Shown here: positions 1 through 12,483 of the stretch, piece after piece
Layout of the letters: every line of letters starts with the position of its first letter
Numbering within the stretch: position 1 is the stretch's first letter
Source of the DNA: a virus
Lineage: Duplodnaviria; Heunggongvirae; Uroviricota; Caudoviricetes
Length of the DNA: 12,483 nt
IMG/VR virus record: IMGVR_UViG_2563366928_000007
Strand: one strand, 5' to 3'
Notes under the pieces: generated by a model
Told to the model about the DNA's origin: nothing
Databases searched by the model: none
The model's input: the letters and a program-made list of their open reading frames with translations, nothing else
Made by a program: the position numbers and the translations under genes

Positions 1-357
<357 letters not shown>

Positions 358-487
358 AAACTGGGGATAACGCCTTAAATGGCGAAGAAACGGTCTAAAT
401 AGGCTGATTCAAGGCATTTACGGGAGAAAAAATCGGCTCAAACATGAAGAAATGAAATGACTGAGTCAGCCGAGAAGAATTTCCCCG

Positions 488-503
488 CTTATTCGCACCT
501 TCC
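488..503. repeat. IS5 16-bp terminal inverted repeat (CTTATTCGCACCTTCC) marking the element boundary; followed by CTAG (504-507), the expected IS5 target tetranucleotide
   Basis: Exact reverse complement of the IS5 terminal sequence GGAAGGTGCGAATAAG. IS5 inserts at YTAR and duplicates 4 bp (established knowledge). Confidence 0.85.
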
Positions 504-1852: not shown

Positions 1853-2183
1853 TACGGAAGAATTTCACTGGTTACCAGAGGATGGAATGAAAACAGAAAA
1901 TAAACCATCGATAAAAACTGTAAGATTTGGCGATGGTTATGAGCAACGAAGTCCAAATGGACTTAATCATTCTCTGCGCGTTTTCACCTGTGATTTCAAA
2001 GTTGAGGCGAATGAACGTGATTCATTTGAAAAATTTTTAGCCCGGCATGAAGGCTATAAATCTTTTTTTTGGCGCCCGCCGGGTATTAACAGAAAAATCA
2101 GAGTGGTGTGTCGAACGTGGTCAGCGACAGAACATATCACCTATACCGATTTTTCGTGTCAGTTTGACGAAGTGGTGATCTGA
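1845..2183 (+). CDS. M: Minor tail protein M (lambda gpM-like)
   Basis: 112-aa ORF. The N-terminal FHW…GM…PS…VRFGDGYEQR and C-terminal …FDEVVI align by eye with lambda gpM (MKTFRWKVKPGMDVASVPSVRKVRFGDGYSQR…EFEQVVN, recalled). An alternative internal start exists at ATG 1887 with a GAGGATGG Shine-Dalgarno; the upstream start is favoured because the N-terminal residues are conserved with lambda M. Confidence 0.85.
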   Translation: MANTEEFHWLPEDGMKTENKPSIKTVRFGDGYEQRSPNGLNHSLRVFTCDFKVEANERDSFEKFLARHEGYKSFFWRPPGINRKIRVVCRTWSATEHITYTDFSCQFDEVVI

Positions 2184-2881
2184 TGCAGGACATACAACAG
2201 GAAACGCTGAATGAATGCATTCGTGCGGAGCAGTCGGCCAGCGTGGTGCTCTGGGAAATCGACCTGACCGAGGTAGGCGGGGATCGCTACTTTTTCTGTA
2301 ATGAGCAGAACGAAAAAGGTGAGTCTGTCACCTGGCAGAGTCGGCAGTATCAGGCCTATCCCATTCAGGGGAGTGGATTTGAGATGAACGGCAAGGGCAG
2401 TGCTGCCCGTCCGACACTGACGGTCTCTAACCTGCACGGCATGATCACCGGGATGGCGGAAGATCTGCAGAGTCTGGTCGGCGGAACGGTGGTCCGGCGT
2501 AAGGTTTACGCCCGCTTTCTGGATGCGGTGAACTTCGTCAACGGAAACAGCGAAGCCGATCCGGAGCAGGAGGTGATCAGCCGCTGGCGCATCGAGCAGT
2601 GCAGCGAACTGAGCGCGGTCAGTGCCTCTTTTGTACTGTCCACGCCGACTGAAACGGATGGCGCTGTTTTTCCGGGACGTATCATGCTGGCCAACACCTG
2701 CACCTGGACCTATCGCGGCGATGAGTGCGGTTATAGCGGTCCGGCGGTCGCGGATGAATATGACCAGCCGACGTCCGATATCACGAAGGATAAATGCAGC
2801 AAATGCCTGAGTGGCTGTAAGTTTCGCAATAATGTCGGCAACTTTGGCAGCTTCCTTTCCATTAACAAACTTTCGCAGTAA
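2183..2881 (+). CDS. L: Minor tail protein L (lambda gpL-like)
   Basis: 232-aa ORF, the same length as lambda gpL. Its start overlaps the M stop (TGATG). The C-terminal Cys cluster (CSKCLSGCKF) is consistent with the Fe-S-binding gpL family. Conserved gene order. Confidence 0.9.
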   Translation: MQDIQQETLNECIRAEQSASVVLWEIDLTEVGGDRYFFCNEQNEKGESVTWQSRQYQAYPIQGSGFEMNGKGSAARPTLTVSNLHGMITGMAEDLQSLVGGTVVRRKVYARFLDAVNFVNGNSEADPEQEVISRWRIEQCSELSAVSASFVLSTPTETDGAVFPGRIMLANTCTWTYRGDECGYSGPAVADEYDQPTSDITKDKCSKCLSGCKFRNNVGNFGSFLSINKLSQ

Positions 2882-2886
2882 ATCCC

Positions 2887-3630
2887 ATGACAGAGACAGA
2901 ATCAGCGATTCTGGCGCACGCCCGGCGATGTGCGCCAGCGGAGTCGTGCGGCTTCGTGGTGAGAACGCCGGAGGAGGAAAGATATTTTCCCTGCGTGAAT
3001 ATCTCCGGTGAGCCGGAGGAGTATTTCCGGATGTCGCCGGAGGACTGGCTGAGTGCAGAAATGCAGGGAGAGATTGTGGCGCTGGTCCACAGCCACCCCG
3101 GTGGTCTGCCCTGGCTGAGTGAGGCCGACCGGCGGCTGCAGGTACAGAGTGATTTGCCGTGGTGGCTGGTCTGCCGGGGGGCGATTCATAAATTCCGCTG
3201 TGTGCCGCATCTCACCGGGCGGCGCTTTGAGCACGGGGTAACGGACTGTTACACGCTGTTCCGGGACGCTTACCATCTGGCGGGAATTGAGATGCCGGAT
3301 TTTCATCGCGGGGATGACTGGTGGCGTAACGGTCAGAATCTCTATCTGGATAATCTGGAGGCCACAGGGCTGTATCAGGTGCCGTTGTCAGCGGCGCAGC
3401 CGGGCGATGTGCTGCTGTGCTGTTTTGGTTCATCGGTGCCGAATCATGCCGCCATTTACTGTGGTGACAGCGAGCTGCTGCACCATATTCCTGAACAACT
3501 GAGCAAACGAGAGAGGTACACCGACAAATGGCAGCGACGCACACACTCCCTCTGGCGTCACCGGGCATGGCACGCATCTGCCTTTACGGGGATTTACAAC
3601 GATTTGGCCGCCGCATCGACCTTCGAGTGA
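2887..3630 (+). CDS. K: Tail assembly protein K (lambda gpK-like) with N-terminal JAB/MPN (JAMM) domain and C-terminal NlpC/P60 domain
   Basis: 247-aa ORF. JAMM motif H-S-H-x7-S-x2-D (VHSHPGGLPWLSEAD); NlpC/P60-type Cys (VTDCYTLF) and His (VPNHAAIY). The 3' end overlaps I by 103 nt, as in lambda. The classical lambda annotation corresponds to the internal ATG at 3031 (199 aa). Confidence 0.85.
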   Translation: MTETESAILAHARRCAPAESCGFVVRTPEEERYFPCVNISGEPEEYFRMSPEDWLSAEMQGEIVALVHSHPGGLPWLSEADRRLQVQSDLPWWLVCRGAIHKFRCVPHLTGRRFEHGVTDCYTLFRDAYHLAGIEMPDFHRGDDWWRNGQNLYLDNLEATGLYQVPLSAAQPGDVLLCCFGSSVPNHAAIYCGDSELLHHIPEQLSKRERYTDKWQRRTHSLWRHRAWHASAFTGIYNDLAAASTFE

Positions 3631-4169
3631 AAACGGGGTCCGAAGCCATCCGGGCGCTGGCCATGCAGATCCCGGCATTTCGTCAGAAACTGAGCGACGG
3701 CTGGTACCAGGTACGCATTGCCGGGCGTGATGCAGGTGAAACCGAATTGTCTGCCCGTCTTAATGAGCCGCTGGAAAATGGTGCCGTGATCCATATCGTG
3801 CCGCGTCTGGCAGGAGCCAAAAGTGGCGGTGTGTTTCAGGCTGTGCTGGGGGCGGCTGTTATGGCGGTTGCTATATGGATGCCGGGGGTAGGAATTATGG
3901 CGAGTAATCTGCTGTTTTCTCTCGGTGCCAGTATGACGCTTGGCGGTGTTGCACAGATGCTGGCCCCTAAACCCAAAACCCCCCGCACACAGACAACGGA
4001 TAACGGCAAACAGAACACCTATTTTTCTTCACTGGATAACATGGTTGCCCAGGGCAATGTTCTGCCGGTTCTGTACGGTGAAATGCGCGTGGGGTCACGC
4101 GTGGTTTCTCAGGAGATCAGCACGGCAGACGAAGGGGATGGTGGTCAGGTTGTGGTGATTGGTCGCTGA
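3528..4169 (+). CDS. I: Tail assembly protein I (lambda gpI-like)
   Basis: 213-aa ORF beginning MAATHTLPLASPGMARICLYGDLQRFGRRIDL… and ending …VVSQEISTADEGDGGQVVVIGR, matching lambda gpI termini from memory. Its start lies inside the 3' end of K in another frame. Confidence 0.9.
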   Translation: MAATHTLPLASPGMARICLYGDLQRFGRRIDLRVKTGSEAIRALAMQIPAFRQKLSDGWYQVRIAGRDAGETELSARLNEPLENGAVIHIVPRLAGAKSGGVFQAVLGAAVMAVAIWMPGVGIMASNLLFSLGASMTLGGVAQMLAPKPKTPRTQTTDNGKQNTYFSSLDNMVAQGNVLPVLYGEMRVGSRVVSQEISTADEGDGGQVVVIGR

Positions 4170-4187
4170 TGCAAAATGTTTTATGTG

Positions 4188-4215
4188 AAACCGCCTCCGG
4201 GCGGTTTTATCGTTT
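4188..4215 (+). other. I-J intergenic hairpin (AAACCGCC-TCCG-GGCGGTTT) followed by a T-rich tract (TTTTATCGTTT); possible weak terminator or attenuator
   Basis: 8-bp perfect inverted repeat with a 4-nt loop read directly from the sequence. The U-tract is interrupted, so the terminator call is weak. Confidence 0.35.
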
Positions 4216-4229
4216 ATGGAGCATGACGA

Positions 4230-7200
4230 ATGGGTAAAGGCAGCAGTAAGGGGCATACCCCGCGCGAAGCGAAGGACAACCTGAAGTCCACGCAGCTGCT
4301 GAGTGTGATCGATGCCATCAGCGAAGGGCCGGTTGAAGGTCCGGTGGATGGATTAAAAAGCGTGCTGCTGAACAGTACGCCGGTGCTGGACAGTGAGGGG
4401 AATACCAATATATCCGGCGTCACGGTGGTGTTCCGGGCCGGTGAGCAGGAGCAGACACCGCCGGAGGGATTTGAATCCTCCGGCTCCGAGACGGTGCTGG
4501 GTACGGAAGTGAAGTACGACACGCCGATTACCCGGACCATCACGTCGGCAAACATCGACCGTCTGCGCTTTACCTTCGGTGTGCAGGCACTGGTGGAAAC
4601 CACCTCAAAGGGGGACCGGAATCCGTCGGAAGTCCGCCTGCTGGTTCAGATACAGCGTAATGGTGGCTGGGTGACGGAAAAAGACATCACCATTAAAGGC
4701 AAAACCACCTCACAGTATCTAGCATCGGTGGTGGTGGGTGACCTGCCGCCGCGCCCGTTCAATATCCGGATGCGCAGGATGACGCCGGACAGCACCACAG
4801 ACCAGCTGCAGAACAAAACGCTCTGGTCGTCATACACCGAAATCATCGATGTGAAACAGTGCTACCCGAACACGGCACTGGTCGGCGTACAGGTGGATTC
4901 GGAGCAGTTCGGCAGCCAGCAGGTGAGCCGTAATTATCATCTGCGCGGGCGTATTCTGCAGGTGCCGTCGAACTATAACCCGCAGACTCGGCAATACAGC
5001 GGTATCTGGGACGGAACGTTTAAGCCAGCATACAGCAATAACATGGCCTGGTGTCTGTGGGATATGCTGACCCATCCACGCTACGGCATGGGGAAACGTC
5101 TTGGTGCGGCGGATGTGGACAAATGGGCGCTGTATGTCATCGGCCAGTACTGCGACCAGTCAGTGCCGGACGGCTTTGGCGGCACGGAGCCGCGCATCAC
5201 CTGTAATGCGTACCTGACCACACAGCGCAAGGCGTGGGATGTGCTCAGTGATTTCTGCTCGGCGATGCGCTGTATGCCGGTATGGAACGGGCAGACGCTG
5301 ACGTTCGTGCAGGACCGACCGTCGGATAAGGTGTGGACCTATAACCGCAGTAATGTGGTGATGCCGGATGATGGCGCGCCGTTCCGCTACAGCTTCAGCG
5401 CCCTGAAGGACCGCCATAATGCCGTTGAGGTGAACTGGATTGACCCGGACAACGGCTGGGAGACGGCGACAGAGCTTGTTGAAGATACGCAGGCCATTGC
5501 CCGTTACGGTCGTAATGTCACGAAGATGGATGCCTTTGGCTGTACCAGCCGGGGGCAGGCACACCGCGCCGGGCTGTGGCTGATTAAAACGGAACTGCTG
5601 GAGACGCAGACCGTGGATTTCAGCGTGGGTGCTGAAGGGCTTCGCCATGTACCGGGCGATGTCATTGAAATCTGCGATGATGACTATGCCGGTATCAGCA
5701 CCGGTGGTCGCGTGCTGGCGGTGAACAGCCAGACCCGGACGCTGACGCTCGACCGTGAAATCACGCTGCCATCCTCCGGTACCACGCTGATAAGCCTGGT
5801 TGACGGAAGTGGTAATCCGGTCAGCGTGGAGGTTCAGTCCGTCACCGACGGACTTAAGGTGAAAGTGAACCGGGTTCCTGACGGCGTTGCAGAATACAGT
5901 GTGTGGGGGCTGAAGCTGCCGACGCTGCGCCAGCGCCTGTTCCGCTGTGTGAGTATCCGTGAGAACGATGACGGCACGTATGCCATCACTGCCGTGCAGC
6001 ATGTACCGGAAAAAGAAGCCATCGTGGATAACGGGGCGCACTTTGACGGCGACCAGAGCGGCACGGTGAATGGTGTCACGCCGCCAGCGGTGCAGCACCT
6101 GACCGCCGAAGTCACCGCAGACAGCGGGGAATATCAGGTGCTGGCGCGCTGGGACACGCCGAAGGTGGTGAAGGGCGTGAGCTTCCTGCTTCGCCTGACC
6201 GTGGCAGCGGATGACGGCAGTGAGCGGCTGGTCAGCACGGCCCGGACGACGGAAACCACATACCGCTTCACGCAACTGGCGCTGGGGCGGTACACGCTGA
6301 CAGTCCGGGCGGTAAATGCGTGGGGACAGCAGGGCGATCCGGCGTCGGTATCGTTCCGGATTGCCGCACCGGTAGCACCGTCGCGGATTGAGCTGACGCC
6401 GGGGTATTTTCAGATAACCGCCACGCCGCATCTTGCCGTTTATGACCCGACGGTACAGTTTGAGTTCTGGTTCTCGGAAAAGCGGATTACCGATATCAGG
6501 CAGGTTGAAACCACAGCGCGCTACCTTGGCACGGGGCTGTACTGGATAGCCGCCAGTATCAATATCAAACCGGGCCATGATTATTATTTTTACGTTCGCA
6601 GTGTGAACACCGTTGGCAAATCGGCATTCGTGGAGGCTGTTGGTCAGCCGAGTGATGATGCATCCGGCTATCTGGATTTTTTCAAAGGCGAGATAGGGAA
6701 AACCCATCTGGCTCAGGAGCTGTGGACGCAGATTGATAACGGTCAGCTTGCGCCTGACCTGGCTGAAATCAGGACGTCCATTACGGATGTCAGCAATGAA
6801 ATCACGCAGACCGTCAATAAGAAACTGGAAGACCAGAGTGCAGCGATCCAGCAGATACAGAAGGTTCAGGTTGATACAAATAATAACCTGAACAGCATGT
6901 GGGCAGTGAAGCTGCAGCAGATGCAGGACGGACGCCTTTATATTGCGGGTATCGGTGCCGGTATTGAGAACACCCCCGACGGCATGCAGAGTCAGGTGCT
7001 GCTGGCGGCAGACAGGATTGCGATGATTAATCCTGCGAATGGCAACACAAAGCCGATGTTTGTTGGTCAGGGCGATCAGATATTCATGAATGAAGTGTTC
7101 CTGAAATATCTGACGGCTCCCACCATTACCAGCGGCGGTAATCCTCCGGCATTTTCCCTGACACCGGACGGGCGACTGACGGCGAAAAATGCCGATATCA

Positions 7201-7709
7201 GCGGTAGCGTGAATGCGAACTCCGGGACGCTCAACAACGTCACGATTAACGAGAACTGTCGGGTTCTGGGAAAACTGTCCGCGAACCAGATTGAAGGCGA
7301 TCTCGTTAAAACAGTGGGCAAAGCTTTCCCCCGGGACTCCCGTGCACCGGAGCGGTGGCCATCAGGGACCATTACCGTCAGGGTTTATGACGATCAGCCG
7401 TTTGACCGGCAAATTGTTATTCCAGCGGTGGCTTTCAGCGGTGCCAGACATGAACGGGAGAATAGCGATACTTATTCGTCATGCCGCCTGATAGTGAAGA
7501 AAAACGGGGCTGAAATTTATAACCGAACGGCTCTGGATAATACTCTGATTTACACGGGTGTTATTGATATGCCTGCAGGCAGTGGCGTAATGACACTGGA
7601 GTTTTCTGTATCAGCATGGTGGGTAAATGGCTGGTATCCCACAGCAAGTATCAGCGATTTGCTGGTTGTTGTGATGAAGAAAGCCACTGCAGGCATCACG
7701 ATTAGCTGA
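4230..7709 (+). CDS. J: Central tail fibre / host specificity protein J (tip attachment protein)
   Basis: 1159-aa ORF with GGAG Shine-Dalgarno 8 nt upstream. The N-terminus [34 protein letters not shown]… and most of the first ~1000 aa match lambda gpJ from memory. The C-terminal ~150-200 aa diverge from lambda in sequence but retain the …[23 protein letters not shown] ending. Confidence 0.95.
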
Positions 7710-7727
7710 ATTTTATAACCCAGATAC

Positions 7728-7755
7728 GGGCGCCAGAAATGGCGCCTTTTTTATT
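7728..7755 (+). terminator. Rho-independent terminator downstream of J
   Basis: GGCGCC (7729-7734), loop AGAAAT, GGCGCC (7741-7746), followed by TTTTTTATT. Confidence 0.7.
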
Positions 7756-7776
7756 GCAGAAAAGCGAGAGGTAATT

Positions 7777-8376
7777 ATGCGTAAATTATGTGCTGTTATT
7801 CTGTCCACAGTAGTCTGGCTGGTCGCCGCTGGTACGCCAGCGAGCGCAGCAGAGCATCAGTCCACACTAAGCGCCGGGTATCTTCAGACCCATACTGATA
7901 TGCCCGGCAACGATGACCTGAAGGGCATTAACGTGAAATACCGTTATGAATTTACGGACACGCTGGGGCTGGTGACGTCATTCAGTTATGCCAATGCCAA
8001 AGATGAGCAAAAAACGCATTACAGCGATACCCGCTGGCATGAAGATTCAGTGCGTAACCGCTGGTTCAGCATGATGGCGGGGCCGTCTGTACGCGTGAAT
8101 GAATGGTTCAGTGCTTATGCGATGGCAGGTGTGGCTTACAGCCGTGTTTCAACTTTTTCCGGGGATTATCTCCGCGTAACTGACAGCAAGGGGAAAACGC
8201 ACGATGTGCTGACTGGAAGTGATGACGGTCGCCACAGCAACACGTCTCTGGCGTGGGGGGCTGGCGTGCAGTTTAACCCGACCGAATCCGTGGCCATTGA
8301 TATTGCTTATGAAGGCTCCGGCAGTGGTGACTGGCGCACTGACGGTTTCATCGTGGGTGTCGGTTATAAATTCTGA
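7777..8376 (+). CDS. lom: Outer membrane beta-barrel protein Lom (Ail/Lom/PagC/OmpX family)
   Basis: 199-aa ORF with GAGAGG Shine-Dalgarno. N-terminal signal peptide (MRKLCAVILSTVVWLVAAGTPASAAE), alternating amphipathic beta-strand pattern, and C-terminal …GVGYKF ending in Phe as in outer-membrane barrels. Position between J and stf is as in lambda. Confidence 0.9.
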   Translation: MRKLCAVILSTVVWLVAAGTPASAAEHQSTLSAGYLQTHTDMPGNDDLKGINVKYRYEFTDTLGLVTSFSYANAKDEQKTHYSDTRWHEDSVRNRWFSMMAGPSVRVNEWFSAYAMAGVAYSRVSTFSGDYLRVTDSKGKTHDVLTGSDDGRHSNTSLAWGAGVQFNPTESVAIDIAYEGSGSGDWRTDGFIVGVGYKF

Positions 8377-8402
8377 TTAGCCAGGTAACACAGTGTTATG
8401 AC

Positions 8403-8430
8403 AGCCCGCCGGTTCAGGCGGGCTTTTTTG
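8403..8430 (+). terminator. Rho-independent terminator downstream of lom
   Basis: AGCCCGCC (8403-8410), loop GGTTCA, GGCGGGCT (8417-8424), followed by TTTTTTG. Confidence 0.75.
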
Positions 8431-8440
8431 TGGAGTGGAT

Positions 8441-10816
8441 ATGGCAGCAGTAAAAATCTCAGGTGTGCTGAAAGATTGTGCGGGAAAACCAATACAGAAC
8501 TGCACTATTCAACTGAAGGCAAAGCGTAACAGCACCACGGTACTGGTGAACACGGTGGCCTCTGAAAATCCGGATGAAGCCGGGCGTTACAGCATGGATG
8601 TTGAGCATGGCCAGTACAGCGTCATCCTGCTGGTTGAAGGTTTTCCGCCTTCACATGCCGGGACCATTACCGTCTATGAAGGCTCCAGACCAGGTACGCT
8701 GAATGATTTTCTCGGTGCCATGACGGAAGATGATGTCATGCCGGAGGCATTGCGTCGTTTTGAGGCAATGGTGGAAGAAGTGGCACGCAACGCCGAAGCC
8801 GCCTCTCAGAGCGCAGCGGCGGCAAAGAAATCCGAAACTGCAGCGGCATCATCGAAGAACGCGGCGAAAACCTCAGAAACGAATGCAGCTAATAGTGCAC
8901 AGGCGGCAGCGACCTCAAAGACTGCATCGGCAAACTCCGCGACAGCAGCCAAAAAATCAGAAACCAACGCGAAAAACAGTGAGACAGCCGCAAAGACGAG
9001 CGAAACCAACGCAAAGTCCAGCCAGACGGCAGCGAAAACCAGCGAAACGAATGCTAAAGCCAGTGAAACTGCAGCAAAAAACAGCCAGGCTTCAGCAGCC
9101 GAAAGCGAGAGCGCGGCAGCCGGTTCTGCGACTTCAGCAGCTGGATCAGCAACTGCTGCGGCTAACAGCCAGAAAGCTGCGAAGACGAGTGAAACTAACG
9201 CAAAGTCCAGCCAGACGGCAGCGAAGACCAGCGAAACGAATGCCAAAGCCAGTGAAACTGCGGCGAAAAGCAGTCAGGATGCAGCGGCCCAAAGCGAGAG
9301 TGCCGCAGCCAGTTCTGCAAGCGCGGCGGCTGCTTCTGCCACTGCATCAGCTAACAGTCAAAAAGCAGCAAAAACCAGTGAAACCAACGCAAAGGTGAGC
9401 GAAACAGCGGCTGCGAACTCAGCGAAAGCATCGGCAGCAAGCCAGACGGCAGCTAAAGCAAGCGAAGATGCAGCCAGAGAGTACGCAAGCCAGGCTGCGG
9501 AGCCGTATAAATATGTCTTACAGCCGCTGCCTGATGTGTGGATACCATTTAACGATTCGCTGGATATGATTACGGGCTTTTCGCCATCATATAAAAAAAT
9601 TGTTATTGGTGACGATGAAATAACGATGCCTGGCGACAAGATTGTTAAGTTTAAACGTGCATCGAAAGCAACCTATATTAACAAATCTGGTGTGCTGACA
9701 GAGGCTGCCATTGACGAGCCACGATTTGAACGTGATGGCCTGCTTATTGAGGGGCAAAGAACAAACTACATGCTCAATTCGGAAAGCCCTGCCAGTTGGG
9801 GGCGATCGTCAAATATGGATGTGCCCGAAACAGGGACGGATAATTTTGGTTTTACCTATGGAAAGTTTGTCTGCAACGATTCTCTGATTGGGCAAACCTC
9901 AGCCATTAATATGGCATCAATTGCTGCAACAAAGTCAGTTGATGTCTCAGGCGATAATAAACACGTGACAACCTCATGTCGTTTTAAAACAGAACTGCAG
10001 GTAAGGTTGCGTATCCGGTTTGATAAATATGACGGTAGCGCAACAACTTTTCTTGGTGATGCGTATATTGATACACAAACGCTTGAAATTAATATGACAG
10101 GCGGTGCTGCCTCAAGGATTACAGCGAGAGTCAGAAAGGACGAAGCTACCGGATGGATTTTTGCAGAGGCAACAATTCAGGCAATTGATGGGGAGTTAAA
10201 AATAGGCTCTCAGATACAGTATTCTCCTAAGCAGAGCGGGGCAACCGTATCTGGTGACTATATTTATCTGGCCACCCCACAAGTAGAAGATGGGCCTTGT
10301 GTATCATCTTTTATTATATCAGGAGCGACGGCGGCGACCCGCGCAAGCGATATAGTTACAGTTCCAATTAAGAATAATCTTTATAATCTTCCTTTTACGG
10401 TTCTTTGTGAGGTACATAAGAACTGGTATAAAACGCCAAATGCAGCGCCACGTGTTTTTGATACCGGCGGTCATCAAACCGGAGCGGCTATTATTCTTGG
10501 CTTCGGTCGTTCAACAGATTACGACGGATTTCCTTATTGCGATATTGGAGGAGCTAACAGACGGGTAAACGAAAACGCATCGCTTGAAAAAATGGTTATG
10601 GGGATGCGTGTAAAGTCAGAGCAGTCTACGTGCTCAGTAAGTAACGGGCATATATCCAGCGAAACAAAAACCACATGGTCCTGTATTCAGAACACCGCAA
10701 TTATCCGTATTGGAGGCCAGACTACAGCCGGGTTACGTCATTTATTTGGTCATGTCAGGAATTTCAGAATATGGCACAAGGCATTGACTGATGCTCAGGT
10801 GGGGGAGTCAATCTAA
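8441..10816 (+). CDS. stf: Side tail fibre protein Stf, mosaic: lambda-like N-terminal domain, repeat shaft, divergent C-terminal receptor-binding region with LamG-like terminal motif
   Basis: Long ORF (track start GTG 8435; ATG 8441 is preferred, with GGAG 5 nt upstream, giving MAAVKISGVLKD… like lambda Stf MAVKISGVLKDGTGKPVQNCTIQLKA…). An S/A/T/K/E/N-rich repeat region follows. The C-terminal ~430 aa are unrelated to lambda Stf and end …GLRHLFGHVRNFRIWHKALTDAQVGESI. Confidence 0.9.
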   Translation: MAAVKISGVLKDCAGKPIQNCTIQLKAKRNSTTVLVNTVASENPDEAGRYSMDVEHGQYSVILLVEGFPPSHAGTITVYEGSRPGTLNDFLGAMTEDDVMPEALRRFEAMVEEVARNAEAASQSAAAAKKSETAAASSKNAAKTSETNAANSAQAAATSKTASANSATAAKKSETNAKNSETAAKTSETNAKSSQTAAKTSETNAKASETAAKNSQASAAESESAAAGSATSAAGSATAAANSQKAAKTSETNAKSSQTAAKTSETNAKASETAAKSSQDAAAQSESAAASSASAAAASATASANSQKAAKTSETNAKVSETAAANSAKASAASQTAAKASEDAAREYASQAAEPYKYVLQPLPDVWIPFNDSLDMITGFSPSYKKIVIGDDEITMPGDKIVKFKRASKATYINKSGVLTEAAIDEPRFERDGLLIEGQRTNYMLNSESPASWGRSSNMDVPETGTDNFGFTYGKFVCNDSLIGQTSAINMASIAATKSVDVSGDNKHVTTSCRFKTELQVRLRIRFDKYDGSATTFLGDAYIDTQTLEINMTGGAASRITARVRKDEATGWIFAEATIQAIDGELKIGSQIQYSPKQSGATVSGDYIYLATPQVEDGPCVSSFIISGATAATRASDIVTVPIKNNLYNLPFTVLCEVHKNWYKTPNAAPRVFDTGGHQTGAAIILGFGRSTDYDGFPYCDIGGANRRVNENASLEKMVMGMRVKSEQSTCSVSNGHISSETKTTWSCIQNTAIIRIGGQTTAGLRHLFGHVRNFRIWHKALTDAQVGESI
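8815..9480 (+). repeat. Low-complexity coding repeat region inside stf, including a ~189-bp (63-aa) tandem direct duplication (copies starting near 9011 and 9200, third partial copy after ~9389)
   Basis: The motif gcaaagtccagccagacggcagcgaa… occurs at ~9011 and again at ~9200, with collinear similarity over ~190 bp. The protein shows reiterated AAKTSETNAK(S/A)S(Q/E)TAAK units. Confidence 0.8.
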
Positions 10817-11097
10817 TGAAAGATTTAACACTCAAATTTGCCGACAGGGCCGACTTTTCGGCCTTTATGGAGAGTATTGGCTATTATGATGACGAGTCGA
10901 TGCAGGATGATATTCTTATTGACGTGATAGGTAACGTGTACAAAGAAACCGGAGAACTGACTGAAGATGGCGAACCGGTATGTGTTAAGGAAGACGGATA
11001 TTTTGTAAACGTGCGCATCATTAATGATTCGCAAATATCGTCATTATTCGATGAATACGTGGTTGCTGTTGAGCATCAACTTCGTGGCTGGATGTGA
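10816..11097 (+). CDS. Hypothetical small acidic protein (93 aa), translationally coupled to stf
   Basis: ATG overlaps the stf stop (TAATG). Codon usage is coherent with neighbouring genes. Strongly acidic (many D/E). No family recognised by eye. Confidence 0.6.
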   Translation: MKDLTLKFADRADFSAFMESIGYYDDESMQDDILIDVIGNVYKETGELTEDGEPVCVKEDGYFVNVRIINDSQISSLFDEYVVAVEHQLRGWM

Positions 11098-11106
11098 GGA
11101 AGAAAA

Positions 11107-12147
11107 ATGGCTACATCGACAGTAATTCCTGATGACATCAAAACGCTAAAATCCGACGTTAGCAAATTAAAAAACGATCAAGGAAGCTACGCAACAAAAT
11201 TATATGTAGACAGCAAAGATGAAATCGTTGGTGACTGGTCTGCTTCATGGTATCAGCAGGTATTGCCAACTAGCGGAGCTATATTTGGGAGAAAACTCCG
11301 CTCAACTCACAGGACGGCAGGTGTTGAGGATGCGTATTGCGAACTATACCTCAAAAAATGGATAGACAGTCCAGGTAACGCAATGGCGCGCCTTAACCTG
11401 AACGATAACGGGACAAACATTTGCTGGGACTTTACCAACCTTTATGGCGGTACGATGATTTTTCCCGGTGACAGCGGATACCTCAAAATGGGTAACTGCC
11501 TTATGTCATACAGCAAGCGTGGAAGTAACGCGCTTATTAAATTTGATTACACCGACACATTACAGATCAAATATGCCAATCATGGGTCAACCATGACATT
11601 AAACACACAGGGAACCGCTTATGCTGGTGTTACTGCTCAATTGTGGGGCAACTCCAGCCGTCCTGTTGTTTATGAAGTCGGTGTTGATGGTGGCGCTTAT
11701 ATGTTCTATGCGCAGAAAAATACCGATAACACCTATATGTTAAGCGTTAATGGTGCATGTCATGCCACCGCATTTAACCAGCATTCCGACCGGGATCTGA
11801 AAGACAACATTCAGGTGATCGATAATGCAACCGACCGCATCCGTAAAATGAACGGCTATACATACACGCTTAAAGAAAACGGTATGCCCTATGCTGGTGT
11901 CATTGCACAGGAAGCTCTGGAAGCAATCCCAGAAGCTGTAGGTTCCGCAATGAAATATCAGGACGGTGCAAGCGGATCGGAAGGTGAAGAAGGTGAACGT
12001 TATTACACAGTAGATTATTCTGGTGTTACTGGCTTGCTTGTTCAGGTAGCCAGAGAGTCAGACGACAGAATAACAGCACTGGAAGAAGAAAATGCAGAAT
12101 TAAAACAAAGATTATCTGCAATTGAGGCGACGCTTGCGTCTAAATAA
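11107..12147 (+). CDS. Tail fibre/spike-like protein with C-terminal intramolecular chaperone autocleavage domain (peptidase S74 / endosialidase-chaperone type)
   Basis: 346-aa ORF with strong GAGGAAG Shine-Dalgarno. The C-terminal ~120 aa carry the S74-type signature: HSDRDLKDNIQ (Ser-x4-Lys autocleavage motif), …YAGVIAQEALEAIPEAVG…, …YYTVDYSGVTGLLVQVARE…, and a terminal coiled coil ITALEEENAELKQRLSAIEATL. The N-terminal ~225 aa are beta-rich and fibre-like. Confidence 0.85.
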   Translation: MATSTVIPDDIKTLKSDVSKLKNDQGSYATKLYVDSKDEIVGDWSASWYQQVLPTSGAIFGRKLRSTHRTAGVEDAYCELYLKKWIDSPGNAMARLNLNDNGTNICWDFTNLYGGTMIFPGDSGYLKMGNCLMSYSKRGSNALIKFDYTDTLQIKYANHGSTMTLNTQGTAYAGVTAQLWGNSSRPVVYEVGVDGGAYMFYAQKNTDNTYMLSVNGACHATAFNQHSDRDLKDNIQVIDNATDRIRKMNGYTYTLKENGMPYAGVIAQEALEAIPEAVGSAMKYQDGASGSEGEEGERYYTVDYSGVTGLLVQVARESDDRITALEEENAELKQRLSAIEATLASK

Positions 12148-12153
12148 TATTAA

Positions 12154-12176
12154 GGGGCCGAGCGCCCCGTTTTATT
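12154..12176 (+). terminator. Possible weak intrinsic terminator or hairpin after the S74 fibre gene
   Basis: GGGGC (12154-12158), loop CGAGC, GCCCC (12164-12168), followed by GTTTTATT. The stem is short and the U-tract imperfect. Confidence 0.35.
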
Positions 12177-12183
12177 GGGTAGG

Positions 12184-12483
12184 ATGAAAATGGATATAAC
12201 ACCTTTCCTTCATGCACTTTGTGCTGTGGCTGCGCAGGTACTGGTTGGTCTTTTTACCGGAAACTGGGCTTACGGGGCGATAGCCGGTTGTACGTTCTTC
12301 ATTGCTCGTGAACATACCCAGGCAGAATATCGCTGGATTGAAATGTTCGGGCATGGCAAGCGTATGAATATGCCGTGGTGGGGTGGTTTTGATCCGCGAG
12401 TGTGGGATGTGGCAAGCCTGATGGATTTTTCTGTGCCGGTGGTGGCTTGTCTGCTGGTCTGGCTGTTGGTTAATCGTGGGTGA
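12184..12483 (+). CDS. Small predicted inner-membrane protein (~97-99 aa, two hydrophobic segments), function unknown; moron candidate
   Basis: ORF complete within the window (TGA 12481-12483). Track start is TTG 12175; more likely starts are ATG 12184 or ATG 12190 (AGGA 5 nt upstream of 12190). Hydrophobic stretches LHALCAVAAQVLVGLFTGNWAYGAIAGCTFFIA and VASLMDFSVPVVACLLVWLLV flank a charged loop. Confidence 0.6.
   Translation: MKMDITPFLHALCAVAAQVLVGLFTGNWAYGAIAGCTFFIAREHTQAEYRWIEMFGHGKRMNMPWWGGFDPRVWDVASLMDFSVPVVACLLVWLLVNRG

What the first reader, a model, noticed from the sequence alone, without database searches (positions are those of the whole stretch)
11107..12147. A second receptor-binding-protein candidate with a self-cleaving S74-type chaperone domain replaces lambda tfa
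Lambda carries stf followed by the chaperone gene tfa. Here stf is followed by a compact 346-aa fibre-like protein whose C-terminus has the hallmarks of the intramolecular chaperone domain found in K1F endosialidase and T5 L-shaped tail fibre (Ser-x4-Lys autocleavage motif HSDRDLKDN, GVIAQE…PE motif, terminal coiled coil). It lacks an obvious lambda-Stf-type N-terminal anchoring domain, so how the mature ~225-aa product attaches to the virion is open. It may attach via Stf or via the upstream 93-aa product, which would make a branched or dual-fibre arrangement. Such modules often determine host range and are engineering targets.
Basis: partly seen in the sequence, partly recalled or inferred. 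Interest (0 to 1): 0.6.

Follow-up and report, generated by a model that had tools for sequence, protein, structure and literature searches.

The report
Second short tail fibre with self-cleaving chaperone
The gene encodes a short phage tail-fibre protein with a built-in, probably self-cleaving folding domain; it is the third gene of a portable side-fibre cassette that is common in E. coli prophages and several lytic phage groups, so it is real but largely ordinary.

Summary
Window 11107-12147 (+) is an intact 346-aa ORF with a significant Peptidase_S74 intramolecular-chaperone (IMC) domain (Pfam E=2.6e-14), a conserved S227/K232 pair, the GVIAQE...PE motif and a C-terminal helix.

It is a common, already annotated "tail fiber domain-containing protein": 512 of 5,426 complete E. 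coli genomes, plus phages Tritos, 2G7b, HannyBb and PhiR63_1.

It is the third gene of a conserved cassette: side fibre with a lectin-like C-terminal head, then a ~92-aa ORF, then a short IMC fibre. The cassette occurs in lambdoid prophages, T1-like, Dhillonvirus, Nonagvirus/Seuratvirus and T5-like phages. Each backbone supplies a different anchor on the first fibre.

All short fibres share the N-terminus M-x-T-x-T-x-I-P-x-D-I-x-x-L-K plus heptads. In 117 of 117 testable viral contigs that motif lies just after the 92-aa ORF. This points to docking inside the cassette, on Stf or orf93, giving a two-RBP side fibre. A published model proposes this arrangement for the homologous Gp22-Gp23-Gp24 of T5-like phage IrisVonRoten. 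Attachment and cleavage remain inferred.

"Replaces tfa" is true only of position. This copy lies in a prophage whose tape-measure gene is cut by an IS5-like element.

Verdict: new member of a known kind, moderate interest.

The parts
8435..10816 (+). stf, the side tail fibre (793 aa from GTG 8435; an ATG at 8441 is the more likely start). Aa 5-134 form the lambda Stf-type tail anchor. Aa ~115-355 form an Ala/Ser/Thr-rich repeat shaft. Aa 365-793 form a lectin-like C-terminal head.
   Evidence: PF08400 matches with E=1e-65. PDB 9e7m 'Tail fiber protein' matches aa 5-97 with E=1e-47. NCBIfam GTA_spike_fiber matches aa 437-637. The 42- and 189-nt tandem repeats lie at 8941-9394. The head is ~70% identical to the head of IrisVonRoten Gp22.
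9527..10816 (+). First part of the portable cassette: the Stf C-terminal head (aa 365-793). It has two variable blocks (aa ~454-633 and ~674-753) between conserved ends.
   Evidence: The left breakpoint of the ~95%-identical transfer into the virulent Nonagvirus ESCO3 lies here. GC is 44% here, against 54-59% upstream. Conservation profile over 52 distinct heads.
10816..11097 (+). orf93, a small alpha/beta protein whose start overlaps the stf stop codon (TAATG). Function unknown; candidate adaptor or assembly factor.
11096..11100 (+). Shine-Dalgarno-like GAGGA, 6 nt upstream of the ATG at 11107.
   Evidence: Read from the sequence. The spacing between orf92 and the next gene is 9-12 nt in all cassettes examined.
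11107..12147 (+). Short IMC-bearing tail fibre protein (346 aa, 38.0 kDa precursor).
   Evidence: Full-length match to phrog_4563 'tail fiber protein', E=3.5e-220. PF13884 match. The 90%-identity cluster holds 2,132 member sequences.
11107..11196 (+). Aa 1-30: conserved N-terminal motif M-x-T-x-T-x-I-P-x-D-I-x-x-L-K followed by heptads. Proposed docking peptide plus the start of a trimeric coiled coil.
   Evidence: Conserved in homologues down to 40% identity and in all backbones. Column entropy is lowest here, together with the IMC. The motif follows an orf92 homologue in 117 of 117 testable contigs. It is absent from the Bas19 fusion fibre.
11197..11421 (+). Aa 31-105: the most variable segment among 346-aa alleles. 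Candidate specificity region.
   Evidence: Entropy is 0.56-0.80 here, against 0.0-0.4 elsewhere. Mosaic alleles are seen in alignment A1. AF2 predicts beta strands with pLDDT 55-80.
11422..11784 (+). Aa 106-226: conserved beta-rich region. It includes a domain homologous to the C-terminal region of T4 gp34 (aa ~150-225), directly before the cleavage serine.
   Evidence: A profile search hits 4uxe/5nxf with E=1.4e-9 to 7.3e-9. The region is shared with the C-terminal ends of long fibres (phrog_6578, phrog_5668). AF2 pLDDT is 85-92 for aa 170-220.
11785..12147 (+). Aa 227-346: the intramolecular chaperone domain. It contains S227 (11785-11787), K232 (11800-11802), the Pfam S74 core (aa 227-278), the GVIAQE...PE motif (aa 264-276) and a C-terminal helix (aa 304-344).
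   Evidence: Sequence match to the solved IMC-bearing tip of S16 gp37 (6f45): E=8.6e-4 with the single sequence and 6.7e-9 with the profile.
12154..12168 (+). GC-rich hairpin GGGGCCGAGCGCCCC followed by GTTTTATT; terminator-like.
   Evidence: This is a consensus match only.
12190..12483 (+). Conserved 97-aa putative membrane protein. It forms the right flank of the cassette. In phage-21-type prophages it directly follows orf92.
   Evidence: phrog_1443 match. Phage 21 annotation. The flank is conserved in 139 loci.

Best explanation
What it is: The gene encodes the subunit of a short homotrimeric tail fibre, a second receptor-binding protein of the side-fibre apparatus.

Domains: The chain has five parts.
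- A conserved N-terminal peptide and short coiled coil (aa 1-30).
- A variable beta-rich segment (aa 31-105).
- A conserved T4-gp34-like beta domain (to aa 226).
- A C-terminal intramolecular chaperone (aa 227-346).

Folding and cleavage (inferred from the family): The IMC nucleates trimerisation of the part upstream of it. It then removes itself by Ser227/Lys232-dependent autoproteolysis. This would leave a ~25-kDa mature subunit.

Attachment (inferred): The protein has no tail anchor of its own. I infer that its N-terminal peptide docks on a component of its own three-gene cassette, either the lectin-like head of Stf or the 93-aa protein. One Stf anchor would then carry two different receptor-binding modules, as a branched or serial bipartite side fibre.

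Shown here: the domain architecture, the conservation of the catalytic pair, the cassette and its portability, and the allelic variation.

Inferred: cleavage, trimer state, virion incorporation, the docking partner and the receptor (probably a surface glycan).
For: IMC membership:
- PF13884 matches with E=2.6e-14.
- S227 and K232 are invariant in 47 homologues.
- The sequence matches the IMC-bearing S16 gp37 tip, 6f45.

Fibre nature:
- Aa 92-343 match the C-terminal ends of 1,200-1,570-aa tail fibres in PHROGs.
- There is a gp34-like domain.
- In Nonagvirus ChristophMerian (Bas19), the body of such a short fibre (the HMD-P4 homologue, aa 45-333, 76% identity) is fused behind a PF08400 anchor in a single 633-aa lateral fibre. 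Only the N-terminal ~44 aa are missing.

The cassette (fibre, ~92-aa ORF, motif-bearing protein at 9-12 nt spacing) was found in:
- lambdoid prophages and phages;
- Nonagvirus;
- Seuratvirus;
- T5-like phages;
- T1-like phages;
- Dhillonvirus.

Portability:
- The fibre's N-terminal anchor changes with the backbone: PF08400 in lambdoids and Bas19, pb1/LtfA-type in HMD-P4.
- The short fibre's N-terminus stays the same.
- ESCO3 carries Stf aa 365-793, orf93 and the short fibre at ~95% nucleotide identity on a non-lambda anchor.
- The cassette has a uniform GC of 42-44%, against 54-59% in the tail genes upstream.

Linkage: In 117 of 117 IMG/VR loci with enough upstream sequence, the N-terminal motif follows an orf92 homologue.

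Allelic swapping: The same slot holds a 234-aa allele that shares only the first ~32 aa plus a divergent S74 domain (E=4.6e-6).

Published precedent: For the homologous IrisVonRoten cassette, the IMC fibre Gp24 is modelled as attached to the proximal fibre Gp22, which has a galectin-like head (PMC11990801).

Functional phages carry near-identical genes: Tritos forms plaques and siphovirus particles (PMC9928086).
Against: - There is no direct evidence for cleavage, trimerisation, presence in virions or any protein-protein contact.
- The AF2 monomer model is poor (mean pLDDT 62.6; the IMC core is below 50), and Foldseek against the PDB gave no significant match. The fold is therefore not independently confirmed.
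- The orf93 model gave only generic fold matches.
- orf92 also occurs without any short fibre, in phage-21-type prophages (1,127 of 5,426 genomes) and in rV5-like phages. It is therefore not dedicated to docking.
- The 117/117 linkage and the 'conserved island' come mostly from closely related E. coli prophages, and those loci were selected by these very sequences. They are not independent observations.
- In this particular window the prophage's tape-measure gene is interrupted by an IS5-like element. This copy is probably not assembled into virions.
Confidence: 0.6

Rival explanations
1. The protein is an independent fibre. It docks directly on the tail tip (J or another tail-tip protein) and not on Stf or orf93.
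For: No contact has been shown. The docking partner proposed above is only inferred from gene linkage. orf92 and the Stf head exist without the short fibre, so neither is obviously a dedicated receptor for it.
Against: The same N-terminal motif is used on lambda-like, T1-like, Queuovirinae and T5-like tails. Their fibre anchors differ: PF08400 versus pb1/LtfA-N with an LtfC collar. The motif was never seen away from orf92 in 117 testable loci. ESCO3 acquired the short fibre together with the Stf head and orf93 as one block, and the fibre's N-terminal 31 aa were unchanged.
Confidence: 0.13
2. The protein is a trans-acting chaperone for Stf, a functional replacement of Tfa, and not a structural fibre. 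This is what annotations such as 'putative lateral tail fiber chaperone' and 'endosialidase chaperone' suggest.
For: It occupies the position that tfa has in lambda. Homologues are annotated this way in KurtStettler, HMD-P4 and ESCO3.
Against: - Characterised S74 domains act in cis on their own polypeptide (established knowledge; Schulz et al. 2010, cited in PMC12143355).
- The 226 aa upstream of the IMC are fibre-like and vary between alleles like a receptor-binding protein.
- The body of such a short fibre is the distal half of a genuine fibre in Bas19.
- Heads of the same family as this Stf head occur without this gene in 1,127 genomes and in phage 21. It therefore cannot be generally required for Stf folding.
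- There is no Tfa-family Pfam hit.
Confidence: 0.07
3. In this genome the gene is an inert passenger of a defective prophage and has no current function.
For: An IS5-like element ends at window position 503, inside the tape-measure gene. Only the C-terminal 401 aa of the tape-measure protein remain as an ORF.
Against: The ORF is intact. It is 100% identical to copies in other genomes whose tape-measure gene is intact. Plaque-forming phages carry genes that are 97-99% identical at the protein level. This rival concerns the state of this copy, not what the gene is.
Confidence: 0.15

Closest known systems
IrisVonRoten (Bas32, T5-like) lateral fibre locus Gp22-Gp23-Gp24 (Humolli et al. 2025, PMC11990801)
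   Same: The cassette is homologous. The Gp22 head aligns with the Stf head (52% identity over the whole alignment, about 70% in the head). Gp23 is an orf93 homologue (39% identity). Gp24 starts MVTKTVIPTDITKLK and ends in an S74 IMC. The paper models Gp24 attached to the proximal fibre Gp22, whose galectin-like head may be an extra receptor-binding domain.
   Different: Gp24 is 574 aa and T-shaped, with a Gp12-like RBD1 and a T5-like RBD2. The protein here is 346 aa and has a different, compact body; only the first 17 aa and the IMC align. The proximal fibre is anchored by a pb1/LtfA-type N-terminus and the LtfC collar, not by the lambda Stf N-domain. The role of the 92-aa protein is not addressed in the paper. 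The attachment there is a prediction, not an experiment.
DT57C / DT571/2 branched L-shaped tail fibres LtfA-LtfB (Golomidova et al. 2016, PMC4728585; Ayala et al. 2023, PMC10713586)
   Same: A siphovirus lateral fibre built from two proteins. The first carries the tail anchor and the second has none. The second protein adds a second O-antigen specificity, and a short conserved N-terminus is thought to mediate its docking.
   Different: The docking parts are not homologous. The LtfB N-terminus and LtfA residues 223-471 gave no significant match to the short fibre, orf93 or the Stf head. There is no 92-aa ORF between ltfA and ltfB.
Intramolecular chaperone domains of K1F endosialidase, T5 pb1 and S16/T2-type gp37 (MEROPS/Pfam S74)
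   Same: A C-terminal S74 domain with a Ser-x4-Lys pair, a G-x-IAQE motif and a terminal helix. Direct sequence match to the S16 gp37 tip, 6f45.
   Different: The carrier protein is very short, at 226 aa. It has no virion anchor of its own and no enzymatic domain. K1F and T5 pb1 chains were not reached by sequence search at E<=0.01.
Lambda Stf-Tfa
   Same: The same genomic position downstream of J and lom, and the same Stf N-terminal anchor on the first fibre.
   Different: The Stf head is a different, lectin-like type. No ORF scanned matched a Tfa-family Pfam model. The downstream genes are orf93 and an IMC fibre.

Membership tests
Peptidase_S74 / intramolecular chaperone domain (Pfam PF13884, MEROPS S74) | Significant match to the family HMM above the curated threshold | tested here: met
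   E=2.6e-14, 53.7 bits against a cut-off of 22; aa 227-278 match profile positions 1-57 of 58.
Peptidase_S74 / intramolecular chaperone domain (Pfam PF13884, MEROPS S74) | Catalytic serine and lysine five residues apart (S-x4-K) at the start of the domain | tested here: met
   S227 and K232 lie in HSDRDLK. Both are invariant in the 47-sequence alignment A3.
Peptidase_S74 / intramolecular chaperone domain (Pfam PF13884, MEROPS S74) | Located at the C-terminus of a fibre or spike polypeptide and followed by a helical region | tested here: met
   The domain occupies aa 227-346 of 346. A helix is predicted at aa 304-344. The upstream part is homologous to fibre tips and to T4 gp34.
Peptidase_S74 / intramolecular chaperone domain (Pfam PF13884, MEROPS S74) | Fold match to a solved IMC structure | tested here: inconclusive
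   In the AF2 monomer model, pLDDT is below 50 for aa 226-277. Foldseek against the PDB gave no hit at E<=0.001. At the sequence level, the solved S16 gp37 IMC tip (6f45) is matched with E=6.7e-9 by profile.
Peptidase_S74 / intramolecular chaperone domain (Pfam PF13884, MEROPS S74) | Autoproteolytic release of the domain after trimer folding | not testable with these tools
   Requires expression and SDS-PAGE or mass spectrometry, with S227A and K232A controls.
Bipartite lateral fibre cassette of the IrisVonRoten Gp22-Gp23-Gp24 type | Proximal fibre with a homologous lectin/galectin-like C-terminal head | tested here: met
   Stf against Gp22: 52% identity over 762 alignment columns, with the head about 70% identical.
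Bipartite lateral fibre cassette of the IrisVonRoten Gp22-Gp23-Gp24 type | A ~92-aa ORF whose start overlaps the end of the fibre gene | tested here: met
   orf93 at 10816-11097. The Bas32 homologue is 39% identical. The same arrangement is seen in all cassettes examined.
Bipartite lateral fibre cassette of the IrisVonRoten Gp22-Gp23-Gp24 type | Distal protein that starts with M-x-T-x-T-x-I-P-x-D-I-x-x-L-K and ends in an IMC | tested here: met
Bipartite lateral fibre cassette of the IrisVonRoten Gp22-Gp23-Gp24 type | Physical attachment of the distal fibre to the proximal fibre | not testable with these tools
   Only single-chain structure prediction was available. The published claim is itself an AlphaFold-Multimer model.
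DT57C LtfA/LtfB branched fibre | LtfB/phiEco32-gp15-type N-terminal 45 aa on the second fibre, and an LtfA/phiEco32-gp14-type branch region on the first | tested here: not met
   BLASTP of DT57C LtfA and LtfB against the cassette proteins matched only the pb1-type anchor (in HMD-P4), repeat and shaft segments. Nothing matched the short fibre N-terminus, orf93 or the Stf head.
Lambda Tfa (tail fibre assembly protein) | Match to a Tfa-family profile | tested here: not met
   No Tfa-family hit in Pfam or NCBIfam for the 346-aa protein or for orf93.
Lambda Stf-type anchored side fibre | PF08400 N-terminal tail-attachment domain | tested here: not met
   Absent from the 346-aa protein. Present in the upstream Stf with E=1e-65.

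The most novel reading that the evidence does not exclude
The conserved junction could be a universal plug-and-socket for adding a second receptor-binding protein to a side fibre. The junction consists of the end of the lectin-headed fibre, the ~92-aa protein and the peptide M-x-T-x-T-x-I-P-x-D-I-x-x-L-K. It is shared by lambdoid, T1-like, Dhillonvirus, Queuovirinae and T5-like phages. In this reading the 92-aa protein is the structural adaptor: a small beta-sheet protein that accepts the N-terminal strand of the short fibre, much as LtfC accepts LtfA in DT57C. Any trimer that carries the peptide would then be displayed. This would give lambda-type particles a natural slot for a second, exchangeable host-range determinant.
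Probability: 0.3. Interest if true: 0.6.

Novelty: new member of a known kind. Interest (0 to 1): 0.37.

Why it matters
Side-fibre proteins set which strains a lambda-like phage, or a lambda-derived DNA delivery particle, can adsorb to. If this cassette displays two exchangeable binding modules on one Stf anchor, two things follow. First, it would explain part of the host-range mosaicism of E. coli prophages. The 346-aa allele is in 512 of 5,426 complete genomes, the 234-aa allele in 740, and the two-gene form in 1,127. Second, it would offer a ready-made docking peptide for fitting engineered lambda particles with a second receptor-binding protein. The 92-aa protein is a widespread tail-fibre-linked gene that has no assigned function.

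Tried and rejected
- AF2 monomer model of the 346-aa protein, from a 47-sequence alignment: mean pLDDT 62.6, with the IMC core below 50. Foldseek against the PDB gave nothing at E<=0.001. This is uninformative, as expected for an intertwined trimer.
No multimer prediction was possible.
- Homology between DT57C LtfA/LtfB and this cassette: absent at the docking parts.
- PDB sequence search with orf93: only chance-level hits.
- Literature searches for the S74 domain together with lambdoid side fibres found nothing specific. The Tritos paper and the Eligo lambda-STF paper do not discuss this gene. The first BASEL paper notes only that the lateral-fibre locus is variable.
- The genome-contig scan with orf92 returned only 3 loci and added little.
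- Does the last 130 aa of Stf correlate with presence of the short fibre? Rejected: JenP1 and JenP2 have other variants yet carry the fibre. Stf head identity varies from 40% to 100% independently of the short-fibre allele.
- The 'conserved island' profile is partly circular, because the loci were selected by orf93 or by the motif. I use it only to show that the two flanking blocks vary independently.
Full report
**1. What is in the window**

The window is the tail end of a lambda-like E. coli prophage. The genes, in order on the + strand, are:

- the C-terminal 401 aa of a tape-measure protein (647-1852);
- the M-, L-, K- and I-type minor tail genes;
- J (4230-7709);
- lom (7777-8376);
- stf (8435-10816);
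- a 93-aa ORF (10816-11097);
- the ORF of the finding (11107-12147);
- a 97-aa putative membrane protein (12190-12483).

The finding's ORF has an ATG start and a TAA stop. GAGGA lies 6 nt upstream of the start. A GC-rich hairpin followed by a T-run lies just downstream, at 12154-12168.

**2.

- Pfam PF13884 (Peptidase_S74, 'chaperone of endosialidase') matches aa 227-278 with E=2.6e-14 and 53.7 bits. The curated cut-off is 22.
- HSDRDLK starts at aa 226, which gives S227 and K232. Both residues are invariant in 47 homologues that share as little as 35% identity.
- The G-V-I-A-Q-E...P-E motif and a C-terminal helix at aa 304-344 are present.
- The solved IMC-bearing tip of Salmonella phage S16 gp37 (6f45) is matched directly. 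The E-value is 8.6e-4 with the single sequence and 6.7e-9 with a family profile. The SDRxxK segments are aligned in that match.
- If processing occurs at or next to S227, as in characterised IMCs (established knowledge of the S74 family), the mature chain is about 25 kDa and the released domain about 13 kDa.
- The protein has no PF08400 anchor, whereas the upstream Stf has one.

**3. The part upstream of the IMC is fibre-like**

- The whole protein matches phrog_4563 'tail fiber protein' (E=3.5e-220). Residues 92-343 match the C-terminal ends of fibres of 1,200-1,570 aa.
- A family profile matches the C-terminal region of T4 gp34 (4uxe/5nxf, E about 1e-9). The match covers the stretch directly before the serine, aa ~150-225.
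- Among 37 distinct 346-aa alleles, the N-terminal 30 aa and the IMC are nearly constant. Residues 31-105 are the most variable.
- The single-chain AF2 model is poor (mean pLDDT 62.6) and gave no significant structural neighbours. The fold is therefore supported by sequence only.

**4. It is common and already annotated**

- The 90%-identity cluster has 2,132 member sequences named 'tail fiber domain-containing protein'.
- The gene is present at >=80% coverage in 512 of 5,426 complete E. coli genomes.
- The isolated phages Tritos (prophage 3 of strain LF82), 2G7b, HannyBb and PhiR63_1 carry proteins that are 97-99% identical.
- Tritos forms plaques and siphovirus particles (PMC9928086).

**5. 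The gene is the third member of a conserved cassette**

The same arrangement was found in each of the groups listed below. It consists of a lateral fibre of 580-800 aa, then a ~92-aa ORF whose start overlaps the fibre's stop codon, then (9-12 nt after the ORF's stop) a protein with the same N-terminus.

- Lambdoid prophages and phages.
- Nonagvirus JenP1, JenP2 and ESCO3.
- Seuratvirus KurtStettler.
- T5-like HMD-P4, IrisVonRoten and a metagenomic contig.
- T1-like phages and contigs.
- Dhillonvirus KarlBarth.

All the first fibres end in the same kind of head (...RHLFGHVRNFRIWHKALTD...). NCBIfam calls this head GTA_spike_fiber. Humolli et al. describe the homologous head as galectin-like.

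The N-terminal anchor of the first fibre differs with the backbone. It is PF08400 in lambdoids and in Bas19, and pb1/LtfA-type next to an LtfC collar in T5-like phages.

The third protein always begins M-[AV]-T-x-T-x-I-P-x-D-I-x-x-L-K. A variable number of heptads follows.

The virulent phage ESCO3 carries Stf aa 365-793, orf93 and the short fibre at about 95% nucleotide identity to the window, behind an unrelated fibre N-terminus. The same block has 42-44% GC in the window, against 54-59% in J, K, L and the first half of stf. The unit that moves therefore runs from Stf residue ~365 to the end of the short fibre.

**6. Evidence on how the short fibre is held**

- In 118 IMG/VR stretches that contain the DNA motif for the N-terminal peptide, all 117 with at least 300 nt of upstream sequence encode an orf92 homologue directly upstream.
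- In lambdoid prophages, the slot after orf93 holds either the 346-aa allele or a 234-aa allele. The 234-aa allele shares only the first ~32 aa and has a divergent but significant S74 domain (E=4.6e-6). It is present in 740 of 5,426 genomes.
- Stf heads vary from 40% to 100% identity independently of which short-fibre allele follows. Only aa 365-450 and the last ~40 aa are conserved.
- Nonagvirus ChristophMerian has no separate short fibre. Instead, aa 45-333 of such a fibre (the HMD-P4 homologue, 76% identical) are fused behind a PF08400 anchor and shaft. Only the N-terminal ~44 aa are specific to the free-standing form.

Together these results argue that the N-terminal peptide is a docking element and that its partner is encoded inside the cassette, as either the Stf head or orf93. 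This remains an inference. The prophage loci are closely related and were selected by these same sequences, so the counts are not independent.

orf92 is not dedicated to the short fibre. Phage 21 and 1,127 of 5,426 genomes have fibre plus orf92 followed directly by the membrane-protein gene. rV5-like phages have a lectin-headed fibre plus an orf92-like gene with no motif-bearing neighbour. orf92 may therefore be an assembly factor of the lectin head, an adaptor, or both. Its predicted alpha/beta fold (pLDDT 81) has only generic neighbours.

**7. Comparison with known systems**

*IrisVonRoten (Bas32).* This is the closest described system. Its Gp22 head is about 70% identical to the Stf head here, and Gp23 is an orf93 homologue. 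Gp24 starts MVTKTVIPTDITKLK and ends in an IMC. Humolli et al. 2025 show an AlphaFold-Multimer complex in which Gp24 attaches to the proximal fibre Gp22. They suggest that the Gp22 head is an additional receptor-binding domain (PMC11990801). The protein in the window shares only the docking peptide and the IMC with Gp24. Its body is a different, compact module.

*DT57C LtfA/LtfB.* This branched fibre is supported by genetics and is a functional analogue. Its docking parts are not homologous to this cassette.

*Lambda Tfa.* It is unrelated. 'Replaces tfa' is therefore only a statement about position.

*Existing annotations.* Homologues are annotated 'putative lateral tail fiber chaperone' or 'endosialidase chaperone'. 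These names probably reflect the Pfam domain name rather than evidence for a trans-acting chaperone.

**8. State of this copy**

Window 1-503 is the end of an IS5-like (ISKpn26-family) element. Homology to an intact copy of the prophage begins at position 504, inside the tape-measure gene. This prophage is therefore probably unable to build tails. The fibre cassette itself is intact.

**9. Verdict**

The feature is a lambdoid member of a widespread lateral-fibre cassette that has been partly described. The IMC assignment is firm. Autocleavage, virion incorporation, docking on Stf or orf93, and the receptor are inferred. The open and useful questions are what the 92-aa protein does, and whether the N-terminal peptide is a general docking tag.

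Noticed in passing
window 1-503 and 504-1852: The right end of an IS5-like (ISKpn26-family) element abuts the interior of the tape-measure gene. Only the C-terminal 401 aa of the tape-measure protein remain as an ORF, so this prophage copy is probably tail-defective. An otherwise 99.2%-identical prophage in E. coli TUM14771 has an intact 3,234-nt tape-measure gene.
   Followed up: yes
window 9527-12147 versus 2183-9526: GC content drops from 54-59% (L, K, I, J and the first half of stf) to 42-44% (Stf head, orf93, short fibre). The drop coincides with the recombination breakpoint seen in phage ESCO3.
   Followed up: yes
L017:5292-5996 and many other IMG/VR loci: An alternative 234-aa allele occupies the same slot after orf93. 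It has the same first ~32 aa, a mature part of only ~115 aa and a divergent S74 domain (S-S-I-R-Y-K). It is found in 740 of 5,426 complete E. coli genomes, more than the 346-aa allele.
   Followed up: partly
L002 (phage 21) 3998-6639; E. coli genomes: A two-gene form of the cassette (fibre plus orf92, then the membrane-protein gene directly) lacks any short fibre. It occurs in 1,127 of 5,426 genomes, including Nissle 1917 and the type strain ATCC 11775.
   Followed up: partly
L218 (Dhillonvirus KarlBarth) 4270-5149: After the orf92 homologue come two short ORFs of 98 and 196 aa. The first starts MVTKTNIPADITALK. No Ser-x4-Lys or IAQE-type IMC motif is visible in either sequence, but neither was run against Pfam. 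Either the docking motif sits on a non-IMC body, or this is a split gene.
   Followed up: no
L219 (T1-like phage tuinn) 4292-5029: A 234-type short-fibre gene is interrupted by a stop codon inside the S74 domain (it ends ...WYGLIAE*). The rest of the IMC lies in a separate small ORF. This could be a pseudogene, a sequencing error or recoding.
   Followed up: no
L006 (Seuratvirus KurtStettler) 5001-6533: The homologous protein is 510 aa, with the S74 domain at aa 208-259. About 180 aa therefore follow the expected end of the IMC, which is unusual for a domain that is normally C-terminal.
   Followed up: no
L217 (rV5-like EmilHeitz) 5001-5333: A 110-aa orf92-like gene follows a 1,478-aa lateral fibre in a myovirus. 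The 92-aa family is therefore not restricted to siphoviruses. The next gene lacks the docking motif.
   Followed up: partly
window 8941-9394: The Stf shaft contains 42-nt and 189-nt tandem repeats that encode S-E-T-N-A-K-type Ala/Ser/Thr-rich repeats. Phage 21 Stf differs from this Stf by large gaps (112 alignment gap positions) in this repeat region.
   Followed up: no
L215 17683-20058 (E. coli TUM14771): In the genome that carries a 100%-identical short-fibre gene, stf itself is annotated as split into an incomplete N-terminal pseudogene plus a separate head ORF. The cassette can therefore persist when the anchor part of stf is damaged.
   Followed up: no
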